From the sequence record PV806339.1: a DNA stretch of 60,026 nucleotides; one strand, written 5' to 3'. Below, one piece after another: positions 43,958-54,610 of the stretch; positions within the stretch are counted from its first letter, which is position 1, and every line of letters begins with the position of its first letter. The notes below the pieces were generated by a model. It was not told the DNA's origin. It saw nothing but the letters and a program-made list of their open reading frames with translations, and made no database searches. Position numbers and translations under genes: made by a program. This DNA is from a phage.

Positions 43958-44384
43958 TCAGAGGTTCCTCTTTCAGACGGTAGGTGATGGTGTCCGGGCG
44001 AGTCGCGTCGATTTCCAGTTCAGGCATCTGCCCGGTGATCAGGCGGGACGGCGTAAGGACTGCGGTGCGCAGGCCATTCTCGAACATGATGTTGGCCGCC
44101 GTGACCAGCGAAATACTTTCGATGTGGTCTTGGGTCTGGTCGAGGCGGCGCTGTAACAGTTCGACCTTCTCCGCGTTCGTGTCCGGAATGTCGAAGGCAG
44201 ACCGCAAGCCATCGATCAACGCAATAGCGTCCGCGCGGGTCAGGGGGGTAACGATCTCGGTGTCGCCGTTGTCCTTCTCGATGTAGATCTCGCCGTCCTT
44301 CTGGCCGGGCTTCTTGTAGATAAAGGCCGTGCGGGTGATGTCGCGTACCGGACTCAGTTCAATAGGGTGGTGCGTGGTTTTCAT
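43944..44384 (-). CDS. hypothetical protein (146 aa)
   Basis: ORF. Confidence 0.45.
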   Translation of the reverse strand: MKTTHHPIELSPVRDITRTAFIYKKPGQKDGEIYIEKDNGDTEIVTPLTRADAIALIDGLRSAFDIPDTNAEKVELLQRRLDQTQDHIESISLVTAANIMFENGLRTAVLTPSRLITGQMPELEIDATRPDTITYRLKEEPLNAAD

Positions 44385-44455
44385 CGGTGTGCGTCCTATA
44401 GGGTGTCAGGTCAAAAGGGTGGTACGCCATTTTTCAGGCGTGCCGTCCTACGTTT

Positions 44456-44827
44456 TTAAACTTCGTCGTCGTCCGAAACGTCGGTGTCAGTACAGGTCAC
44501 AACGGCCTGAATGAACATGCGGCCAGACGGGTAAGTCACCAGCGCGGATTCCATGCTGAACCGTTGGCCGTGGTGTTTCATGGCGTTCCGGATGGAAGAA
44601 TTAAGGCTGGCCCGCATCTTCGCTTTGAGGGCATTGGCCTCGTCCTGTACCTGCGAAAGCGTACGGTCAAGCGGGAGTTCTTGGGACAGGGTGTACACGC
44701 CACCGACTTCCAGCGCAATGAGGTTCCCCACGACGCTGTACACGCGCACGCGTGACGGCAGTTCAACATCCGGCTCGGTCGTCATCATTGCGCCAGTCAG
44801 TTCGGCCGGGCTTAGTTCTTTGCTCAT
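44456..44827 (-). CDS. hypothetical protein (123 aa), ends ...VSDDDEV
   Basis: First gene of - strand early operon; GGAG RBS; promoter upstream. Confidence 0.5.
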   Translation of the reverse strand: MSKELSPAELTGAMMTTEPDVELPSRVRVYSVVGNLIALEVGGVYTLSQELPLDRTLSQVQDEANALKAKMRASLNSSIRNAMKHHGQRFSMESALVTYPSGRMFIQAVVTCTDTDVSDDDEV

Positions 44828-44869
44828 TGGGATGGCTCCAGTTGGTTCGTTAAATGTTACGTTCGGAGA

Positions 44870-44898
44870 ACAATAGTTCTACACGCGACGTATGTCAA
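44870..44898 (-). promoter_or_regulatory. sigma70-like promoter with conserved extended spacer (- strand)
   Basis: On - strand: TTGACA (44898-44893), spacer TACGTCGCGTGTAGAAC (17), -10 TATTGT (44875-44870). Confidence 0.55.
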
Positions 44899-44951
44899 TT
44901 CATTTCATCCAGTAATTATGATGACCGGGTGACACTCCAGTTTAGTTTCAG

Positions 44952-45187
44952 CCGGATGACTTTTTGAAGTAAGGCGGGTGGCCGGGCCGCCGGGCTTCAA
45001 CCGGGTAACTTTTTCAAGTAAGCGCGGAACGTCGCAACGACAACCGGACAGGTTTTTCAAGTAAGCCCGTCAGCCGGGTGAAATTGCCCCGACGCTGGTG
45101 GACAAAACCGTCAGCCGGGTAGGTTTTTGAAGTAAGAACTGGCCGCGTCGTTCAAAATTTTTCAACCGGGTAACTTTTTCAAGTAAG
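44952..45187. repeat. array of five 22-bp direct repeats CCGG(G/A)T(A/G)(A/G)(C/G)TTTTT(C/G)AAGTAAG
   Basis: Copies at 44952-44973, 45001-45022, 45044-45065, 45115-45136, 45166-45187; copies 2 and 5 identical. Confidence 0.85.
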
Positions 45188-45493
45188 CCCGTCGGGAATT
45201 TTTATAGAGAAAGTCAGGCCCGGCGCGGCCTGCCGTTGTGGGCGGTTGTCGTTTTTGGCGGGATTTCGTACAAATCGTTATAAATCAACGGCTTAACCTA
45301 TGCGCCGATCGGCCTGTTTTGGCCCGGTTGGCGTCGGTTTTTCGTATAGAGTTCAAGTGTTTAGGACGTGGCGCGGTGTGCCGTTTGGCGGTGTGCCGGG
45401 GCGGGGGCCGTGGGGCGCGGCGGTGCAATGCGGCCCGGCGTGGCGATCGGTGGCGCTTTTATGTGCGGTTAATCAAATAATATGAAAAAAGAT

Positions 45494-45522
45494 TTGACGC
45501 ACGCCGCGTATATCATTTACAT
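45494..45522 (+). promoter_or_regulatory. sigma70-like promoter with conserved extended spacer (+ strand)
   Basis: TTGACG (45494-45499), spacer CACGCCGCGTATATCAT (17), -10 TTACAT/TACATT; followed by CCCTTCGGGGG hairpin. Confidence 0.5.
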
Positions 45523-45587
45523 TTAAATTCCCTTCGGGGGACGGGGCAAAAAGTCCCGGCGATAAACTAACTTTATGAGGTGTCACG

Positions 45588-45848
45588 ATGGAAAAGGTAT
45601 ACAACGCGATCAAGGGTCAGACGTTGCAACATTGGTTATCAATCGTTATTAAGCGCGACGAAAGCGGCACGGCAACGGTTGAACTGCATAGCACGATCCA
45701 CGTTAACCGGGTGAGCACGCTTTCTTTTTCATGGGGGAAGGAATTCACCGACGCCGATATTTTAAATGACAATGATTTATTACGCGTTATTTATCAGAAG
45801 TACGGCCGCGAAATTTTCACCGCCGAATATACCCGCGATTTCAAATAA
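45588..45848 (+). CDS. hypothetical early protein (86 aa)
   Basis: ORF downstream of promoter. Confidence 0.5.
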   Translation: MEKVYNAIKGQTLQHWLSIVIKRDESGTATVELHSTIHVNRVSTLSFSWGKEFTDADILNDNDLLRVIYQKYGREIFTAEYTRDFK

Positions 45849-45861
45849 GAGGATCAACACA

Positions 45862-46401
45862 ATGCAAACTATCATTACCAAATATTCTAACGGTTCAATT
45901 ATGGCTAAATGCTGGAATGGTTGGACGCGTTCACAGTATGACGCTGAATTAAATAGCGAACAAAATCACCGCGCGGCCGCTGAAAAGTTGATCGCTAAAC
46001 TCAATGCGAATAAATCAGTTAGTTGGGGGATTGTTGCTAGTGCGCCATCCGTGCCGGGCGTGCGTGGTACGGATAATGGCTGGACGTTTATGATCGGTTA
46101 TATTCCAGAAGTCGCGCCGCTGGATATGTCGATCACTGTTAAATTCTGCCCGGCAACAAATAAAGGCCCGGCGTATATGCGCGTTTATTCGTGGTTAGTG
46201 CCGCGCGGGATCAAGGTTAACTATTCGCCACGCGTCGCCGACGGGTCAGACATTCAAGCCAATGCACGATACGCGGCCGGGATCATGTTAGAGCGAATTA
46301 ATGAAATATGCCGCGAGGGGGGCGATCTTTTAGGCTGGAAAATTGCGGACTATGTGCAATTGTACGACGGCGATCGCCTGTTCACACTGAAAGCTAATTA
46401 A
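45862..46401 (+). CDS. hypothetical early protein (about 180 aa; start refined from ORF 45766)
   Basis: RBS AAGAGG before ATG at 45862. Confidence 0.5.
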   Translation: MQTIITKYSNGSIMAKCWNGWTRSQYDAELNSEQNHRAAAEKLIAKLNANKSVSWGIVASAPSVPGVRGTDNGWTFMIGYIPEVAPLDMSITVKFCPATNKGPAYMRVYSWLVPRGIKVNYSPRVADGSDIQANARYAAGIMLERINEICREGGDLLGWKIADYVQLYDGDRLFTLKAN

Positions 46402-46415
46402 TCCGGGGGCGCGTC

Positions 46416-46616
46416 ATGTTAATGGCTATTATCTTGATCGGTTATTCAATTATTGCGGCTGTTATATATCGTGACGCGCGGGCGGTGTGGCGTCGCTGTA
46501 AGGTTGAGCGCCGTTATTCTTTCGGGCGTAAAACTTTTTATTTACGCGAGCGTAAAACAGGCCGTTTGATCGGCTGTTCAAATAATTTTTTCACTCTTCT
46601 GTTACAAGGGGCTTAA
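46416..46616 (+). CDS. small membrane protein (66 aa)
   Basis: N-terminal TM LMAIILIGYSIIAAVIY. Confidence 0.4.
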   Translation: MLMAIILIGYSIIAAVIYRDARAVWRRCKVERRYSFGRKTFYLRERKTGRLIGCSNNFFTLLLQGA

Positions 46617-48127: not shown

Positions 48128-48157
48128 TTGACGCACGCCGCGTATATCATCTATTAT
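48128..48157 (+). promoter_or_regulatory. sigma70-like promoter with conserved extended spacer (+ strand)
   Basis: TTGACG (48128-48133), spacer CACGCCGCGTATATCAT (17), -10 CTATTA/TATTAT; followed by CCCTTCGGGGG hairpin. Confidence 0.55.
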
Positions 48158-50637: not shown

Positions 50638-50648
50638 ATTGCCTTTCT

Positions 50649-50846
50649 GATATACGCGGCGTGCGTTGGTGTGCCGTGTATCGGGCCTATGGTGCGCCGC
50701 TGTAGTTGATATACGCGGCGTGCGTATGGCGGCCCGTCCTGCTTTCTTCCTTCCTGATATACACGACGTGCATCAATGCGGCCTTATGTGCGCGCTATGC
50801 CGTATGGCGGCCCGCTATGGTGCTGCATGATATACGCGGCGTGCGT
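50649..50846. repeat. four copies of the promoter-core motif in reverse orientation (GATATACGCGGCGTGCGT)
   Basis: Copies at 50649-50666, 50708-50725, 50755-50775 (variant), 50829-50846; reverse complement of the spacer core of the 45494 and 48128 promoters; no matching -10 on the - strand. Confidence 0.8.
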
Positions 50847-51307
50847 TGGTGTGCGGCTGTATATGGCTATCTATTCCCCTTTCTATGGTATCCCCTGCTA
50901 TATGGTGTGACGGGGCGTTATTGTATGCCCTTATTTCGGCCGCTATGGGGGCTAGGCGGGGCGATCGTGGTGTAAGGTATGCCTACCTATTACGATCTAT
51001 CTTGCGAGGCGTGGCGGGCGGCTGAGAAAGAATTACGGTCACGATTTCAAAAAGGTACTTACCCGCCAGTCGGTCGGCCCGGGGGTGCGCAGAGCCGCTT
51101 TCTCGGAAAATGGGCCGGATCTGCCATAGCCCCGCTTTGCGAAATCAATAACTTAGCCGAAAAACCGAATTTCTCCCGTAGGGAGTCTCCAAATCGCGGT
51201 GGTGACGGGGGTGCGGGCGGAACGGCGCTTTAGCCCCGCAATCGGTTGATTGTATTACTGTTTTACCCGGTGGGCGGGTGCTGACCAAGTCCACGGCAGC
51301 AGTATCA

Positions 51308-51590
51308 GGTTACAAGTTACAGACGGGTTACAAGTTTTTCGCTTTGTAACCTCTAACTATCTCACTGTTTTTACTGCGTTTTTCTCCTATAAAGTTACAA
51401 GTTACAAATAAAGTATAGTAATAGTCCAGAAATAGAGAAAACGAGGTAAAAATGTGAATTTTATATAGGGGGGAATTTTACCCGGGCGCTAAACCACTTC
51501 GGTTTGTAACCTGAATACCCGGATCGCTGAGAGCCGCGCCACCACTGGCCCGAACATGGTTACAAACGGCGAAAATGGTATGTAACCTTT
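51308..51590. repeat. iteron array of GTTACAA / TTGTAAC heptamers (at least 8 copies, both orientations)
   Basis: GGTTACAAG at 51308 and 51325, TTGTAACC at 51344 and 51504, tandem GTTACAAGTTACAA at 51394-51407, GGTTACAAAC at 51558, TGTAACC at 51580; AT-rich surroundings. Confidence 0.8.
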
Positions 51591-51608
51591 TGCCCGTTTT
51601 GGCCGTTT

Positions 51609-51662
51609 TCTTGCGTTTCAATAACAAATTTGTTATACGTCTTGCCCCGAATCCTGCTATAA
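51609..51662 (+). promoter_or_regulatory. candidate promoter/operator region upstream of XRE regulator
   Basis: Palindrome ACAAATTTGT, TATAAT hexamer, repeated TTTGTTATA. Confidence 0.35.
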
Positions 51663-51696
51663 TTTATTTGTTATAAACAGCAAAAATAGGTCAAAA

Positions 51697-51984
51697 ATGC
51701 AGCACGATGAATGCCGTGAAACGTTGATGGATTTCAAACGACAATTACAGACACATTTGAAGGCGATTTTACGTCGTCAGGGGGTCACACAGAGCGCGCT
51801 TGCGACGATGATCGGCGTACACCAGTCAAGATTAAGTTTCATGCTTAACAGTGACGCAGACAGAGTTTCGATCGATAAACTCATTGAAGCGATAGTGAAA
51901 CTGGACGGCGTGTTTATGGTGAAAATCGGAGATCAAACAGACATAAATCGAGTGCGGTACAAGGAGTGCGAAGACAACGTTTGA
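51697..51984 (+). CDS. XRE-family helix-turn-helix transcriptional regulator (95 aa)
   Basis: HTH GVTQSALATMIGVHQSRLSFML typical of Cro/CI-type regulators. Confidence 0.65.
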   Translation: MQHDECRETLMDFKRQLQTHLKAILRRQGVTQSALATMIGVHQSRLSFMLNSDADRVSIDKLIEAIVKLDGVFMVKIGDQTDINRVRYKECEDNV

Positions 51985-52024: not shown

Positions 52025-54610
52025 CTAAACTTCGTCTTCATCGTCAAACGGGTCTGGCTTTTTGCCGACCAGTTTTTCGACTTCTGCGTCATGCCGTTTT
52101 AACGTAGTCTGCACCCACGACGAGTTAAGTTTCCCCGCGTCGTCGAATGCCCCTTTGACCCGCTTCCTGACATAAACGCGGCCAGATTCGCCGCCAAATT
52201 TGACCACGCCGCCCGGCTTGAAGCCCAATTCCATAAGCATGTTTTTCAGGCGGTTCGTCTTCGGCATTTCCACGTCTGTCATTTCGAGGAATGCGTTTTT
52301 CAGGGACGGCACGAAGATGACGTCGCGGTGTACGCCCGGCGTCGTTCCGTCACGAAGCATTTGTGCGATTGCGCCTTCCACGCCATCGTCAGACGCGTCG
52401 GCCATGACCGCGAATGCTTCGGTGTCCTGCGGTGCGTGTCCTTTGGCATCGAAATCCTTTCCGATCTCCCAATCGAGGAACCACTTTTTGATAGCAGGTG
52501 CGTGGTTTTCGATTGCCCGGTACACGTTTTTGAAGAAGCGCGCGCGTTCAGTCTTCGACCCGTAAACCCGCTCCATGTCCAGATGATTTTCTGCCTGCGT
52601 GGACACCACCAGATAACGACGCTGGTTTTCATCGAGTGGCAATGCGTTGAAGTGGTTGGTGAACATCATTTTGCTGCTGGTGTTCACGACTTCCTTCGGC
52701 TTGCGGCCCTTTGGCTCAATCTGGAAGCGATCGTTTGTGATGAATTCCTTCTGGCGTTCCACCGCGCTGTACCGATCGCCTTTGTCGTAGATCTCTTCCA
52801 CGATTTTCAGGATGTGGCCCTCGGCCCAATCGCTGAAACGGCCATTCATCACGGTGTTTGACACATAGCCCACGTTCGACGCGCCGAGCATCCGCGACAT
52901 GATGATGCCGAGCGTCGTTTTACCAGAACCATGCGCACCACGGATCAGAAGCGAGTAGTTGATGCGTTTCGTTGGGTGCTGAATAACCCACGCCATCCAG
53001 TCCAGAACATAGCGGCGTTCCTTCTCGTTCGGGAAAAGCACGATGAAGAAGTCTTTGATGATCTCCAGCGCCTTTTTGTCGTACGGAGAAAGGTCAGTCG
53101 CGGCCTCCGGAATGGATTCAGGGTCAAAAGAGTTCAGCCACGTACGCCCACGGTCGTCAATAAAGAATTCCGGCCCGATCACCCCCTCTTTCGGCTTCCA
53201 CACAGATTCCGGCATGTCACCGTGCATCGCCGGGTAGTACATCGCGTCCCAAACGATAGGAACCGGGCGGACTACCGACGCATAGTGGACAGGCTTGAAG
53301 GCTTCTTCCTCAAACACGCATTTTTTCGCAAAAGCGACGTCGAAAGCGCCTTTTGTGATGTAATCGCCCGTGGTTTTTTCGATAAAACTGTCATTTGCCT
53401 TCGAGAAAACGAAGTTTTTCAGCCACTGCGGAGTCTCTTTTGACCCGTAATCGAAGCCCAAAAGCTCCCTTTTGTCACCAGCAGTGAGGCGGAAGTTGTT
53501 GATCCTGCGGTATGCTTCGGCCGCAATCTGGACGATGGCCTTGCGGGTAAGCCCGAAAATCTGCGCTTTTTTGAATGATTCGGCCCACGCATTCCAGTCA
53601 TTCGCCTCGGTACACTCGGCGAAAGCCTCGCGGTACTCGATGGCGCGTTCTTCCTGCTCGGCTTTCTCGATGTCCTGCACTTCTTTGATGATGGTGCCGA
53701 GCGTGATCAGTCGAGTCGAGTTGTGCGCGAAGCCCTTATCCCACTTGTATTCGAAATCACCTTCGTCGAAGTTGTGTGCCTGCATGGCCCATTCGCGGGC
53801 AATGGCCTTCGCCTCGTCCTGATCGCGGCAGGAAATTTGCAGCGCGGCCAGTACGGTGATGTAGTTCTCGTAATCTTCCGGGTTCGGGTATTTCAGGACG
53901 ATGTCGCGCAGTTCATCGTACGTGCCGTCCCACTTTTTGACGTCAGACAGCGCGGCCCAATCGTCATCGTCTGCCGAACCGATAGACTCATAACCGTTCA
54001 TTGGCCGTTTGACCATTGTCCAGCCCAAGTCCTTCGCGTATCGGTCGAATTCGGCGGCGATCTCGCGAGCGGTATCGAGGCTGATCTCTTCGAGGTCAAG
54101 GTCGGCGGCGTTGTTCAGCGGATTCTCGCCATCAATCCAGTAATAGTCGCGCTTGGTGTCCGGGTGGATACCGTACGCAACGAACTGCTGGCCGTCGGCG
54201 AGGATTTCAACTGCATGGCGCTGGCCGAAGTCGTCTTCCCACACGCCGGATTTCACTTTGGCGAACGGGTTTTCGGTTCGGTACAGGTAGAGTTTCTTCG
54301 GCTCCCGGCCGATACGACATGGCGCTGCACCGACGTTCTCGGCGATCCAGTCTGCCATGTGCGCCACGGCGTCTTCATCGTAAACGTCGATGTCAACCGC
54401 CGGGGTGTATTTGGTCAGAATCCCGATGCCGTTATTCGTATAGCGTTTCGCCCAACGCTGGATCTGCTCCTTATCATTGATTGTTCGTTCCCAATCTTCA
54501 CCGATAGGGCGTTTGCCCGCACCCTTCTTATCGGCGTCCGGGGCGTAGATAGGTACGATGGTGTACCCATTCCCCCAAAGCGTTTCGCCGTACTCTTGCC
54601 AGTAGTTCAT
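52025..54610 (-). CDS. bifunctional DNA primase-polymerase / SF3 (D5/P4-type) helicase (861 aa), ends ...DDEDEV
   Basis: N-terminal prim-pol-like region (GIGILTKYTPAVDIDVYD); C-terminal Walker A LIRGAHGSGKTTLG. Confidence 0.7.
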   Translation of the reverse strand: MNYWQEYGETLWGNGYTIVPIYAPDADKKGAGKRPIGEDWERTINDKEQIQRWAKRYTNNGIGILTKYTPAVDIDVYDEDAVAHMADWIAENVGAAPCRIGREPKKLYLYRTENPFAKVKSGVWEDDFGQRHAVEILADGQQFVAYGIHPDTKRDYYWIDGENPLNNAADLDLEEISLDTAREIAAEFDRYAKDLGWTMVKRPMNGYESIGSADDDDWAALSDVKKWDGTYDELRDIVLKYPNPEDYENYITVLAALQISCRDQDEAKAIAREWAMQAHNFDEGDFEYKWDKGFAHNSTRLITLGTIIKEVQDIEKAEQEERAIEYREAFAECTEANDWNAWAESFKKAQIFGLTRKAIVQIAAEAYRRINNFRLTAGDKRELLGFDYGSKETPQWLKNFVFSKANDSFIEKTTGDYITKGAFDVAFAKKCVFEEEAFKPVHYASVVRPVPIVWDAMYYPAMHGDMPESVWKPKEGVIGPEFFIDDRGRTWLNSFDPESIPEAATDLSPYDKKALEIIKDFFIVLFPNEKERRYVLDWMAWVIQHPTKRINYSLLIRGAHGSGKTTLGIIMSRMLGASNVGYVSNTVMNGRFSDWAEGHILKIVEEIYDKGDRYSAVERQKEFITNDRFQIEPKGRKPKEVVNTSSKMMFTNHFNALPLDENQRRYLVVSTQAENHLDMERVYGSKTERARFFKNVYRAIENHAPAIKKWFLDWEIGKDFDAKGHAPQDTEAFAVMADASDDGVEGAIAQMLRDGTTPGVHRDVIFVPSLKNAFLEMTDVEMPKTNRLKNMLMELGFKPGGVVKFGGESGRVYVRKRVKGAFDDAGKLNSSWVQTTLKRHDAEVEKLVGKKPDPFDDEDEV

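What the first reader, a model, noticed from the sequence alone, without database searches (positions are those of the whole stretch)
44952..45187. Five 22-bp direct repeats between the divergent early promoters
CCGGGTAACTTTTTCAAGTAAG-like units (two copies identical) spaced 43-71 bp apart lie between the - strand promoter at 44870-44898 and the + strand promoter at 45494. There is no coding potential here. Candidates: operator array for a regulator of both early operons, a replication origin, or a packaging site. Irregular spacing and absence of cas genes argue against CRISPR.
Basis: seen in the sequence. Interest (0 to 1): 0.55.

Follow-up and report, generated by a model that had tools for sequence, protein, structure and literature searches.

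The report
Conserved repeat array in Chi-like phages
Five same-direction copies of a ~25-bp DNA motif sit in the untranscribed gap between the two early operons of this Chi-like Salmonella phage; the motif and its odd spacing are conserved in related phages from Salmonella to Pseudomonas, so it is almost certainly a protein-binding control site, most plausibly for starting DNA replication, though its function is not proven.

Summary
Five co-oriented repeats lie at 44949-45187, with core TTTTT-S-AAGTAAG and start-to-start spacing 49/43/71/51; none are expected by chance. The window is a permuted Chi-like siphovirus genome (Chivirus, Casjensviridae) with cos at 51084-51095.

- **Position:** the array is unique in the genome. 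It lies in a 760-bp gap between divergent sigma-70-type promoters.
- **Conservation:** arrays of 3-6 copies occupy the same place and orientation in 24 sampled lineages of at least 8 genera, including a Pseudomonas phage.
- **Constraint:** in nine chiviruses the AAGTAAG boxes are 97% invariant against 54% for the spacers. The spacing stays fixed.
- **Partner site:** a perfect IHF consensus follows the array about 100 bp away in 17 of 24 lineages.

CRISPR, coding sequence and a cos/pac role are excluded. A classical operator role is unlikely.

My best reading, at about 0.35, is an iteron-like replication origin or replication enhancer. Counter-evidence:
- There is no AT-rich unwinding element beside the array.
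- Proteus phage Saba keeps the replication genes but lacks the array.
- Neither gp2 nor gp62 tracks the array.

The binding protein is unidentified. I found no description of these repeats in the papers searched.

The parts
44949..44973 (+). R1 copy 1 (CAGCCGGATGAC-TTTTT-G-AAGTAAG)
   Evidence: aligned with copies in other genera
44998..45022 (+). R1 copy 2 (CAACCGGGTAAC-TTTTT-C-AAGTAAG); identical to copy 5 over 28 nt
45041..45065 (+). R1 copy 3 (CAACCGGACAGG-TTTTT-C-AAGTAAG)
45112..45136 (+). R1 copy 4 (CAGCCGGGTAGG-TTTTT-G-AAGTAAG)
45163..45187 (+). R1 copy 5 (CAACCGGGTAAC-TTTTT-C-AAGTAAG)
45150..45163 (+). A/T block GTTCAAAATTTTTC immediately left of copy 5. It is the lowest-GC stretch of the array (GC 0.43 in an 80-bp window). 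It is near-invariant in nine chiviruses (one variable column) and recognisable in Enc34, Redjacvirus, JC01 and Yonseivirus.
45197..45211 (+). R2 motif AATTTTTATAGAGAA, 10 bp right of the last R1. The composite R1-N(6-11)-R2 recurs in Yonseivirus, Kokobelvirus, Zhonglingvirus and Redjacvirus. A second R2-like copy (TTTTCGTATAGAGT) is at 45339-45352.
45283..45295 (+). Perfect IHF core consensus (AATCAACGGCTTA), about 100 bp right of the last R1. It is one of only 4 in the genome. A perfect match at a similar offset occurs in 17 of 24 lineages, and the differences in the listed sites fall mainly at the four N positions.
44870..44898 (-). Leftward early promoter-like site (TTGACA-17-TATTGT), forming the left border of the untranscribed gap. 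It belongs to a promoter family with a shared spacer sequence.
45494..45523 (+). Rightward early promoter-like site (TTGACG-18-TACATT), forming the right border of the gap. A near-identical copy is at 48128.

Best explanation
**What it is.** The array is a cis-acting, double-stranded-DNA protein-binding array that nucleates a fixed-geometry nucleoprotein complex in the untranscribed gap between the two divergent early operons.

**Most likely role.** I think it is an iteron-type replication origin, or a replication enhancer acting with an origin elsewhere.

**Proposed mechanism (inferred, not shown):**
1. A conserved factor binds the five co-oriented sites through the AAGTAAG box, the preceding T-tract and a looser CC.G box.
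2. IHF bends the DNA about 100 bp to the right.
3. Divergent transcription from the two flanking promoters supplies negative supercoiling.
4. The short A/T blocks (GTTCAAAATTTTTC, AATTTTTATAGAGAA) open.
5. The phage PrimPol/SF3-helicase gp2 then loads and primes.

**Shown:** the array, its uniqueness, its conservation and fixed spacing, the IHF consensus, and the flanking promoters.

**Inferred:** binding, the identity of the binder, and any link to replication.
For: **Array properties**
- The array is real and occurs once in the genome.
- Unit size (about 25 bp), copy number (3-6) and strict co-orientation are iteron-like.

**Conservation**
- Arrays sit at the same syntenic place in 24 sampled lineages. 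These include Chivirus, Enchivirus, Redjacvirus, Jacunavirus, Yonseivirus, Kokobelvirus, Zhonglingvirus and Maxdohrnvirus of Pseudomonas.
- In nine chiviruses the right boxes have 34 of 35 invariant columns, against 54% for the spacers. Mean pairwise difference is 0.011 against 0.19.
- Only 1 of 20000 random block placements did as well. There is one gap column in 239, so the 49/43/71/51 spacing is held while the spacers diverge.

**Accessory features**
- A perfect IHF consensus lies about 100 bp right of the array in 17 of 24 lineages.
- A/T-rich motifs sit next to the last copies.
- The gap is bounded by divergent promoters.
- The leftward operon beside it encodes DNA-metabolism proteins such as an RdgC-like protein.

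**A plausible initiator exists**
- gp2 has Prim-Pol, PriCT-2 and SF3-helicase domains, plus a modelled C-terminal winged helix.

**No competing host use**
- No similar sequence was found in plasmids or in E. coli genomes, and the core-pair scan of one representative genome per species found no arrays in host chromosomes.

**Weak support**
- From the figures, I calculate that the trend-corrected cumulative GC-skew minimum falls near 44 kb. This is confounded by the switch in gene orientation there.
Against: **No unwinding element.** There is no extended AT-rich region beside the array. The minimum GC is 0.43 in 80-bp windows, against 0.28 at 51360-51480. No DnaA box is present.

**Saba lacks it.** Proteus phage Saba keeps homologues of gp2, gp4 and gp6-gp10 and of gp62. 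It has no R1 anywhere and only a 246-bp divergent gap.

**The motif is too conserved for a phage-specific iteron.** The right box is invariant across genera, yet the replication proteins are only 33-51% identical. The putative recognition helix of the gp2 winged helix differs between Chi and the Pseudomonas phage, although both carry the array.

**No covariation with gp2.** ZCSE8 has a unique gp2 middle domain but the same array type as Season12, which carries the standard gp2.

**A rival origin site exists.** Genus-specific short repeats next to the primase gene and cos behave more like initiator-specific sites. These are GGTTACAAGTT in Chi, TCATTTTTTAACCG in Saba and TATCCGGGACA in the Pseudomonas phage.

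**No phasing.** Spacings are not helically phased (Rayleigh p at least 0.09).

Confidence: 0.35

Rival explanations
1. **Transcription-control array.** A conserved factor, possibly a host protein given the conservation from Enterobacterales phages to a Pseudomonas phage, binds the five sites. With the IHF bend it loops to one or both early promoters, acting as an upstream enhancer, silencer or insulator that sets the timing of the leftward DNA-metabolism operon against the rightward small-gene operon.
For: - The array lies between the two divergent early promoters.
- The IHF consensus is roughly midway between the array centre and the rightward promoter, and it is conserved.
- The motif is far more conserved than neighbouring proteins, as expected for a site read by conserved machinery.
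Against: - No copy overlaps a promoter.
- The first copy lies 83-170 nt from the start codon of the leftward first gene, depending on genus, so there is no fixed activator geometry.
- At least three other promoters of the same extended family (48128, 41583, 36335) have no R1 nearby.
- The shared ACGYCGCGT spacer inside those promoters is the more obvious operator candidate.
- I found no match to any host-factor consensus I could recall: DnaA, IHF, Fis, CRP, sigma-32, sigma-28, sigma-E, marbox or Tus. This is recalled knowledge, not a database test.
- The scan for pairs of the core in one representative genome per species found no arrays in host chromosomes.
Confidence: 0.2
2. **Polar DNA-entry signal.** The array would be a directional pause or stop signal, analogous in logic to the T5 injection stop signal. 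The co-oriented sites would halt or slow genome entry once the right-end 6 kb, carrying the rightward operon and its promoter, is inside the cell. This would create a pre-early expression phase.
For: - The array sits 5.9 kb from the right cohesive end, directly behind the promoter of the right-end operon.
- Two IHF consensus sites lie just right of cosN (51143, 51239). By analogy with lambda cosB (my knowledge), this suggests packaging runs rightwards, so the right end would be ejected first.
- Strict co-orientation in all genomes suits a directional process.
- As described for the T5 signal region, the non-coding array is better conserved than the adjacent coding DNA (bioRxiv 10.1101/866236).
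Against: - I found no report of two-step transfer for Chi-like phages in the literature searched.
- The T5 region is built from DnaA boxes and large inverted repeats, and none are present here.
- Saba lacks the array.
- The packaging direction is inferred only.
Confidence: 0.1
3. **Single-strand priming signals.** The invariant octamer SAAGTAAG, with its 5' T-run, would be a template recognition and start site for the PrimPol domain of gp2. The model is the 8-nt TTTGGTTA site needed by the related NrS-1 PrimPol. Five co-oriented copies would give redundant leading-strand starts directed leftwards.
For: - gp2 carries Prim-Pol and PriCT-2 domains, and its helicase domain matches the NrS-1 enzyme.
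- NrS-1 PrimPol depends on an 8-nt template sequence, proposed to fix the start of genome replication (PMC7102993, PMC8718748).
- The invariant part of R1 is 7-8 nt and strand-specific, and it is preceded by a T-run that would template a purine-rich primer.
Against: - The T-run is replaced by GATC-containing heptamers in several lineages.
- The fixed spacing and the conserved left box are not explained by priming.
- Saba has gp2 but no array.
- The DNA would first have to be opened by something else.
Confidence: 0.08
4. **Centromere-like or anchoring site.** The array would serve partition or membrane attachment, bound by a ParB/ParR-type protein. This would matter in carrier-state or temperate members of the family.
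For: - Irregularly spaced asymmetric boxes with an IHF site recall P1 parS (my knowledge).
- The Pseudomonas relative encodes a protein with a ParB HTH domain 2 kb from its array, and also an integrase.
Against: - Pfam found no ParA/ParB/ParR-type domain in the proteins I scanned from the window, or from Chi itself (99% identical in gp2).
- Chi is described as lytic (PMC4342425).
- The ParB-like gene is confined to one genus while the array is widespread.
Confidence: 0.05

Closest known systems
Iteron-containing replication origins of plasmids and phages (lambda ori, P1 oriR, pSC101, R6K gamma ori; phage P4 ori/crr with irregularly spaced octamer sites read by a primase-helicase)
   Same: - Several co-oriented direct repeats of about 20-25 bp sit in one cluster, unique in the genome.
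- There is an accompanying IHF site.
- The array lies in non-coding DNA next to replication and recombination genes.
- The phage encodes a primase plus SF3-type helicase with a winged-helix-like C-terminal domain, an architecture like P4 alpha. The P4 comparison is from my knowledge.
   Different: - There is no adjacent AT-rich unwinding region and there are no DnaA boxes.
- Spacing is irregular (43-71 bp) rather than roughly 22-bp tandem.
- The motif is invariant across genera instead of co-evolving with the initiator.
- No cognate Rep protein is identified.
- A related genus with the same replication genes lacks the array.
Origins of lactococcal phages such as c2 and sk1, which are non-coding repeat-rich regions between divergent promoters (my knowledge, not checked in the library)
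   Same: A repeat-rich non-coding region between divergently transcribed early gene blocks of a siphovirus.
   Different: Unrelated sequences and hosts. Those origins were shown by plasmid-replication or interference assays, and nothing comparable exists here.
Phage Mu operator/enhancer region (O1-O3 with an IHF site between the divergent Pe and Pc promoters) (my knowledge)
   Same: Multiple copies of a short asymmetric motif with irregular spacing and an IHF site, located between divergent early promoters.
   Different: The Mu sites overlap the promoters and are read by a known repressor and transposase domain. Here the sites are clear of both promoters and no reader is known.
T5 injection stop signal region (bioRxiv 10.1101/866236)
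   Same: A complex, conserved non-coding repeat region located some 6-10 kb from a genome end, bordering a block of small early genes. It is better conserved than the neighbouring genes.
   Different: The T5 region is built from inverted repeats and paired DnaA boxes within a terminal repeat. Here there are simple co-oriented direct repeats, no DnaA boxes, cohesive ends, and no evidence of stepwise entry.

Membership tests
Iteron-type replication origin | Cluster of several direct repeats of about 17-25 bp in one orientation | tested here: met
   Five co-oriented copies of about 25 bp here, and 3-6 in relatives.
Iteron-type replication origin | Adjacent AT-rich DNA unwinding element | tested here: not met
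   The lowest GC next to the array is 0.43 in 80-bp windows. Only 14-15-bp A/T blocks are present. The genome's AT-rich non-coding DNA is at 51360-51480, with GC 0.28.
Iteron-type replication origin | Host accessory sites (DnaA boxes and/or IHF) | tested here: inconclusive
   A perfect IHF consensus lies at 45283-45295 and is conserved in 17 of 24 lineages. No DnaA box occurs in the gap.
Iteron-type replication origin | A cognate initiator whose specificity tracks the repeats | tested here: not met
   - The gp2 middle-domain variant of ZCSE8 does not track the array type.
- The helix of the modelled gp2 winged helix differs between phages that both carry the array, and the domain is present in Saba, which lacks the array.
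- gp62 (DUF7609) is unchanged between T-tract and GATC variants, and its fold is uninformative.
Iteron-type replication origin | Initiation of DNA synthesis at the site, or autonomous or phage-dependent replication of a cloned fragment | not testable with these tools
   Needs marker-frequency sequencing, 2D gels or plasmid assays.
CRISPR array | Regularly spaced repeats with unique spacers of similar length, plus cas genes or a leader | tested here: not met
   Start-to-start distances are 43-71 bp and irregular. The 'spacers' are homologous between phages. Among the proteins I scanned with Pfam and PHROGs, none matched a cas family, and the genome is a 60-kb phage genome.
Operator array of the early promoters | Sites overlap or abut the regulated promoters and recur at co-regulated promoters | tested here: not met
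   The nearest copy ends about 50 bp upstream of the -35 of the leftward promoter, and the array ends about 300 bp from the rightward one. The other promoters of the family (48128, 41583, 36335) have no R1.
cos/pac accessory sites (terminase small-subunit binding sites) | Location next to the DNA cleavage site | tested here: not met
   The cohesive-end sequence GGTGCGCAGAGC is at 51084-51095, 5.9 kb from the array (PMC4342425).
T5-type injection stop signal | Paired DnaA boxes within large inverted repeats at the end of the first-entering segment | tested here: not met
   There are no inverted repeats in the gap and no DnaA boxes. Only the position relative to a genome end is comparable.
parS-type centromere | A partner ParB/ParR and ParA encoded by the element | tested here: inconclusive
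   No such Pfam domain appeared in the scanned proteins of the window or of Chi itself. Not all about 75 proteins were scanned. A ParB-HTH protein occurs only in the Pseudomonas relative.

The most novel reading that the evidence does not exclude
The array is a polar signal read during a directional DNA transaction, not a classical origin. The most interesting version is that it arrests genome entry after the right-end 6 kb, giving Chi-like phages a T5-like pre-early phase. A second version is that a conserved host protein with no described consensus is captured there. Either would explain three observations: the motif outlasts every neighbouring protein from Salmonella phages to Pseudomonas phages, its orientation never changes, and it marks the exact border of the right-end operon.
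Probability: 0.1. Interest if true: 0.7.

Novelty: new member of a known kind. Interest (0 to 1): 0.4.

Why it matters
**Little is known about these phages inside the cell.** Chi-like phages (Casjensviridae) are classic flagellotropic phages and are being considered for Salmonella control. Yet in the literature I searched I found no mapped origin, no described early regulatory circuit, and no account of the genome's non-coding architecture.

**The array is a concrete handle.** It is the most strongly conserved non-coding element I found in the genome. Its 25-bp bait could be used to pull down the binding protein, and its five boxes can be mutated.

**What each outcome would give:**
- If it is the origin, it supplies the cis element needed for replicon studies and phage engineering.
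- If it is read by a host factor or controls DNA entry, it would reveal a new host dependency shared by phages of Enterobacterales and Pseudomonas.

Tried and rejected
- **Structured RNA:** an Rfam scan of 44000-46500 at E up to 1 found nothing.
- **gp62 (DUF7609) as binder:**
  - PDB sequence search found nothing.
  - The AF2 model had pLDDT 72.6.
  - The afdb50 library was not available.
  - The protein is unchanged between array variants, and Saba has it too.
- **gp56 as binder, by phylogenetic profile:** rejected. Kokobel1 has the array but no gp56 at the syntenic place, and the Pseudomonas hit is marginal.
- **gp2 middle domain or winged helix as reader of the variable left half:** rejected by the ZCSE8 versus Season12 and S.Ent 1-35-3 comparison and by the helix alignment.
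- **Helical phasing of the spacings:** not significant.
- **Host regulatory array or plasmid iterons:**
  - The core-pair scan of genome contigs found no arrays in host chromosomes.
  - No hits in plasmids.
  - No hits in E. coli genomes.
- **Looser scan for three AAGTAAG copies in viral contigs:** returned mostly non-specific contigs of unrelated sizes, many from giant-virus bins.
- **R2 as a genome-wide promoter motif:** it occurs only here.
- **Host-factor consensus sequences recalled from memory** (DnaA, IHF, Fis, sigma-32, sigma-28, sigma-E, CpxR, marbox, Tus/Ter): none fits R1 in all genera. These are recollections, not tests.
- **Literature:** seven full-text searches and several papers read mention neither these repeats nor a Chi origin.

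Full report
**1. What the window is.** Megablast of 44400-45900 finds 105 phage records. Nearly all are Chi-like Salmonella phages at 93-98% identity, including Chivirus chi NC_025442. The published Chi cohesive end GGTGCGCAGAGC (PMC4342425) occurs once, at 51084-51095. The window is therefore a circularly permuted whole genome of a Chivirus (family Casjensviridae).

In Chi's annotation the finding lies between gp62 (leftward) and gp63/gp64 (rightward). In the window these are a DUF7609 gene at 44456-44827 (minus strand) and a DUF7300 gene at 45588-45848 (plus strand).

**2.
- The repeat finder gives five direct copies with start-to-start spacing 49, 43, 71 and 51, and no inverted repeats.
No hits occurred in 100 shuffles.
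- The 13-nt core TTTTTSAAGTAAG is exact in all five. Five of the six genomic SAAGTAAG octamers are in the array.
- Promoter-like sites flank the gap at 44898-44870 (minus) and 45494-45523 (plus).
- There is no Rfam match.

**3. Conservation is the main result.** The same array sits at the same place and in the same orientation in many relatives:

| Phage or genus | Copies | Spacing |
|---|---|---|
| Serratia phage Smarc5 | 5 | 49/43/71/51 |
| Hafnia phage Enc34 | 5 | 39/32/43/51 |
| Redjacvirus | 5 | 72/45/71/51 |
| Cronobacter phage JC01 | 5 | 59/47/56/71 |
| Klebsiella Yonseivirus | 4-6 | variable |
| Kokobelvirus | 3 | 83/63 |
| Zhonglingvirus | 4 | 52/73/51 |
| 59-61 kb metagenomic relatives (RdgC only about 27% identical to Chi's) | 4-5 | (57)/47/57/61 |
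| Pseudomonas phage SS2019XI (Maxdohrnvirus) | 4-5 | 37/44/35 (/33) |

A compilation of 102 distinct copies from 24 lineages gives the consensus C-A-R-C-C-K-G-C-T-A-G-G-TTTTT-S-AAGTAAG. The right box is invariant and the left half has a few strong positions: C at -17, CC at -14/-13, G at -11 and A at -8. The search pattern imposed part of the right-box invariance. The earlier searches that allowed mismatches show the same thing.

Within nine chiviruses whose spacers differ by about 19%:
- The AAGTAAG boxes have 34 of 35 invariant columns, against 54% for the spacers.
- Only 1 of 20000 random block placements did as well.
- There is a single gap column in 239, so the irregular spacing is itself conserved.

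**4. Informative natural variants.**
- **T-tract replacement.** The T5 tract is replaced by GATC-containing heptamers in several independent lineages. These are all four copies in one Yonseivirus contig, mixed arrays in others, copy 5 of STP11, and single copies in Zhonglingvirus and Redjacvirus relatives. The neighbouring DUF7609 protein does not change.
- **Insertion.** FSL SP-030/039 carry an insertion in this gap, annotated as an HNH endonuclease, and retain only three copies.
- **Loss.** Proteus phage Saba (Cenphatecvirus) has the same genome plan, the same cos sequence, and homologues of gp2, gp4, gp6-gp11 and gp62. It has no R1 anywhere and only a 246-bp divergent gap.

The array is therefore strongly constrained where present, but it is not indispensable to the family.

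**5. Other elements in the gap.**
- A perfect IHF core consensus lies at 45283-45295. It is one of four in the genome. Two of the others sit just right of cos.
- A perfect IHF match lies 79-127 bp right of the last repeat in most lineages, and further away in Enc34 and Redjacvirus. Differences in the listed sites fall mainly at the N positions.
- An A/T block (GTTCAAAATTTTTC) precedes the last copy. An AATTTTTATAGAGAA motif follows it and recurs in other genera, but occurs nowhere else in this genome.
- There are no DnaA boxes.
- The spacings show no helical phasing.
- GC content within the array is 0.43-0.59, so there is no classical unwinding element.

**6. What it is not.**
- **CRISPR:** the spacing is irregular, the spacers are homologous between phages, and no cas family appeared among the proteins scanned.
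- **Coding sequence.**
- **A cos or pac element:** it is 5.9 kb from cos.
- **A typical operator:** the sites are clear of both promoters, their distance to the leftward gene start varies from 83 to 170 nt between genera, and other promoters of the same extended family lack R1. That family has the form TTGACryACGyCGCGTrT, at plus 45494, plus 48128, minus 44898, minus 41583 and minus 36335.
- **Borrowed from a host or plasmid**.

**7.
- **gp62 (DUF7609).** It is always the first gene left of the array, including in the Pseudomonas phage. Residues 1-108 are 100% identical in about 100 chiviruses. However, its AF2 model (pLDDT 72.6) finds only non-specific folds. It does not change with array variants, and Saba keeps it.
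- **gp2.** It has Prim-Pol, PriCT-2 and SF3-helicase domains, and its helicase domain matches the NrS-1 enzyme.
  - Its putative recognition helix differs between Chi and the Pseudomonas phage, although both carry the array. Saba has the domain too.
  - ZCSE8's unique gp2 middle domain coexists with an array type shared with phages that carry the standard gp2.
- **gp56.** Its phylogenetic profile fails as well.

The cross-genus invariance of the motif points to a very conserved phage protein or a host factor.

**8. Weighing mechanisms.**
- **In favour of an origin or replication enhancer:**
  - The array is a unique cluster.
  - Its size, copy number and orientation are iteron-like.
  - It has an IHF partner site and A/T blocks.
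  - It has divergent promoters on both sides, which could drive supercoiling.
  - An initiator-type gp2 is present.
- **Against:** the points in sections 4, 5 and 7, plus the existence of genus-specific short repeats next to the primase gene and cos. These are GGTTACAAGTT, about 9 copies around DNA of GC 0.28 in Chi; TCATTTTTTAACCG in Saba; and TATCCGGGACA in the Pseudomonas phage. They vary with genus, as initiator sites usually do. They could equally be terminase cosB sites, given the two IHF sites there.

I therefore give the origin or replication-enhancer reading 0.35. The alternatives are transcription control (0.2), a polar DNA-entry signal (0.1), PrimPol priming sites (0.08) and a centromere or anchor (0.05). 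The remainder is unassigned. That the array is a functional, protein-read cis element I hold at about 0.9.

**9. Novelty.** None of the papers found or read mentions these repeats or an origin for Chi-like phages. These include the Chi, Utah, Enc34 and Season12 papers. The element is a new, family-wide member of a familiar class: clustered direct-repeat binding sites in phage non-coding DNA. It has two unusual traits. It is invariant across hosts as distant as Salmonella and Pseudomonas, and its spacing is irregular but fixed.

Noticed in passing
window 50648-50854: Four direct repeats TGATATACGCGGCGTGCGT (spacing 59, 48, 73) lie 230-440 bp left of cos. They are the reverse complement of the spacer and -10 part of the rightward early promoters at 45494 and 48128, but they lack a good -35. 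They could be decoy or operator sites, leftward promoters, or part of the cos region.
   Followed up: partly
window +45494, +48128, -44898, -41583, -36335: A family of sigma-70-like promoters shares an extended sequence, TTGACryACGyCGCGTrT, between and including the -35 and the spacer. The rightward pair also shares a 53-nt leader at 90% identity. The two divergent promoters are likewise mutually similar in Enc34 and JC01.
   Followed up: partly
window 51300-51600: About nine copies of GGTTACAAGTT or GTAACC, in both orientations, surround the most AT-rich non-coding DNA of the genome (GC 0.28). This lies between cos and the gp1/gp2 genes. Two perfect IHF consensus sites are at 51143 and 51239. 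It is a rival origin candidate, or the terminase cosB. Analogous but different repeats occur in Saba and in the Pseudomonas phage.
   Followed up: partly
window 51621-51675: Two copies of the palindrome ATAACAAATTTGTTATA lie just upstream of the Cro/CI-type HTH gene at 51697-51984. This is probably its operator.
   Followed up: no
C-termini of genes ending at window 57268, 57919, 2366 (+) and 42237, 52025, 44456, 33620 (-): Seven proteins end in the same acidic peptide D-[DE]-[DE]-E-V. They are the gp6-like exonuclease, the T7 gp2.5-type SSB, the terminase small subunit, the RdgC-like protein, the gp2 PrimPol-helicase, gp62 (DUF7609) and a PAPS-reductase-like protein. This looks like a shared docking tail for one replisome hub, by analogy with the T7 acidic tails. 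The tail on DUF7609 is absent in JC01, Kokobel1, the Pseudomonas phage and Saba.
   Followed up: partly
whole window; one site at 45094-45101 inside the array: There are 24 copies of the E. coli/Salmonella Chi recombination hotspot GCTGGTGG, against 1.8 expected (largest shuffle count 5). The plus-strand copy inside the array is the first correctly oriented Chi that RecBCD would meet when entering from the right cohesive end. It is kept in 8 of 9 chiviruses.
   Followed up: partly
window 52025-54610 (-), gp2: gp2 is a Prim-Pol, PriCT-2 and SF3-helicase protein with a modelled C-terminal winged-helix-like domain (aa 744-815). Its middle region (aa 300-500) is the most variable part. Phage ZCSE8 carries a version less than 60% identical to that of every other phage in the collection.
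   Followed up: yes
window 44456-44827 (-), gp62: Residues 1-108 of this DUF7609 protein are 100% identical in most of the 103 phage records that match at 99% identity or more. The intergenic DNA next to it differs by up to 15%.
   Followed up: partly
window 45360-45470: A G-rich block (GC up to 0.78, GC skew about +0.35) just upstream of the rightward promoter is highly conserved among chiviruses. It overlaps the small annotated ORF gp63 of Chi. Its function is unknown.
   Followed up: no
L043 (FSL SP-030) and records KC139514, NC_021779: These phages carry an insertion in this gap, annotated as an HNH endonuclease. They keep only three R1 copies. This is a natural partial deletion compatible with viability.
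   Followed up: partly
phage collection records, e.g. GU169904 (Staphylococcus phage SA1), OR850409, OR847543, OR844965: Records labelled as Staphylococcus, Listeria or Enterococcus phages contain Chi-like Salmonella phage sequence at 90-99% identity. These are probably contamination or chimeric or mislabelled assemblies.
   Followed up: no
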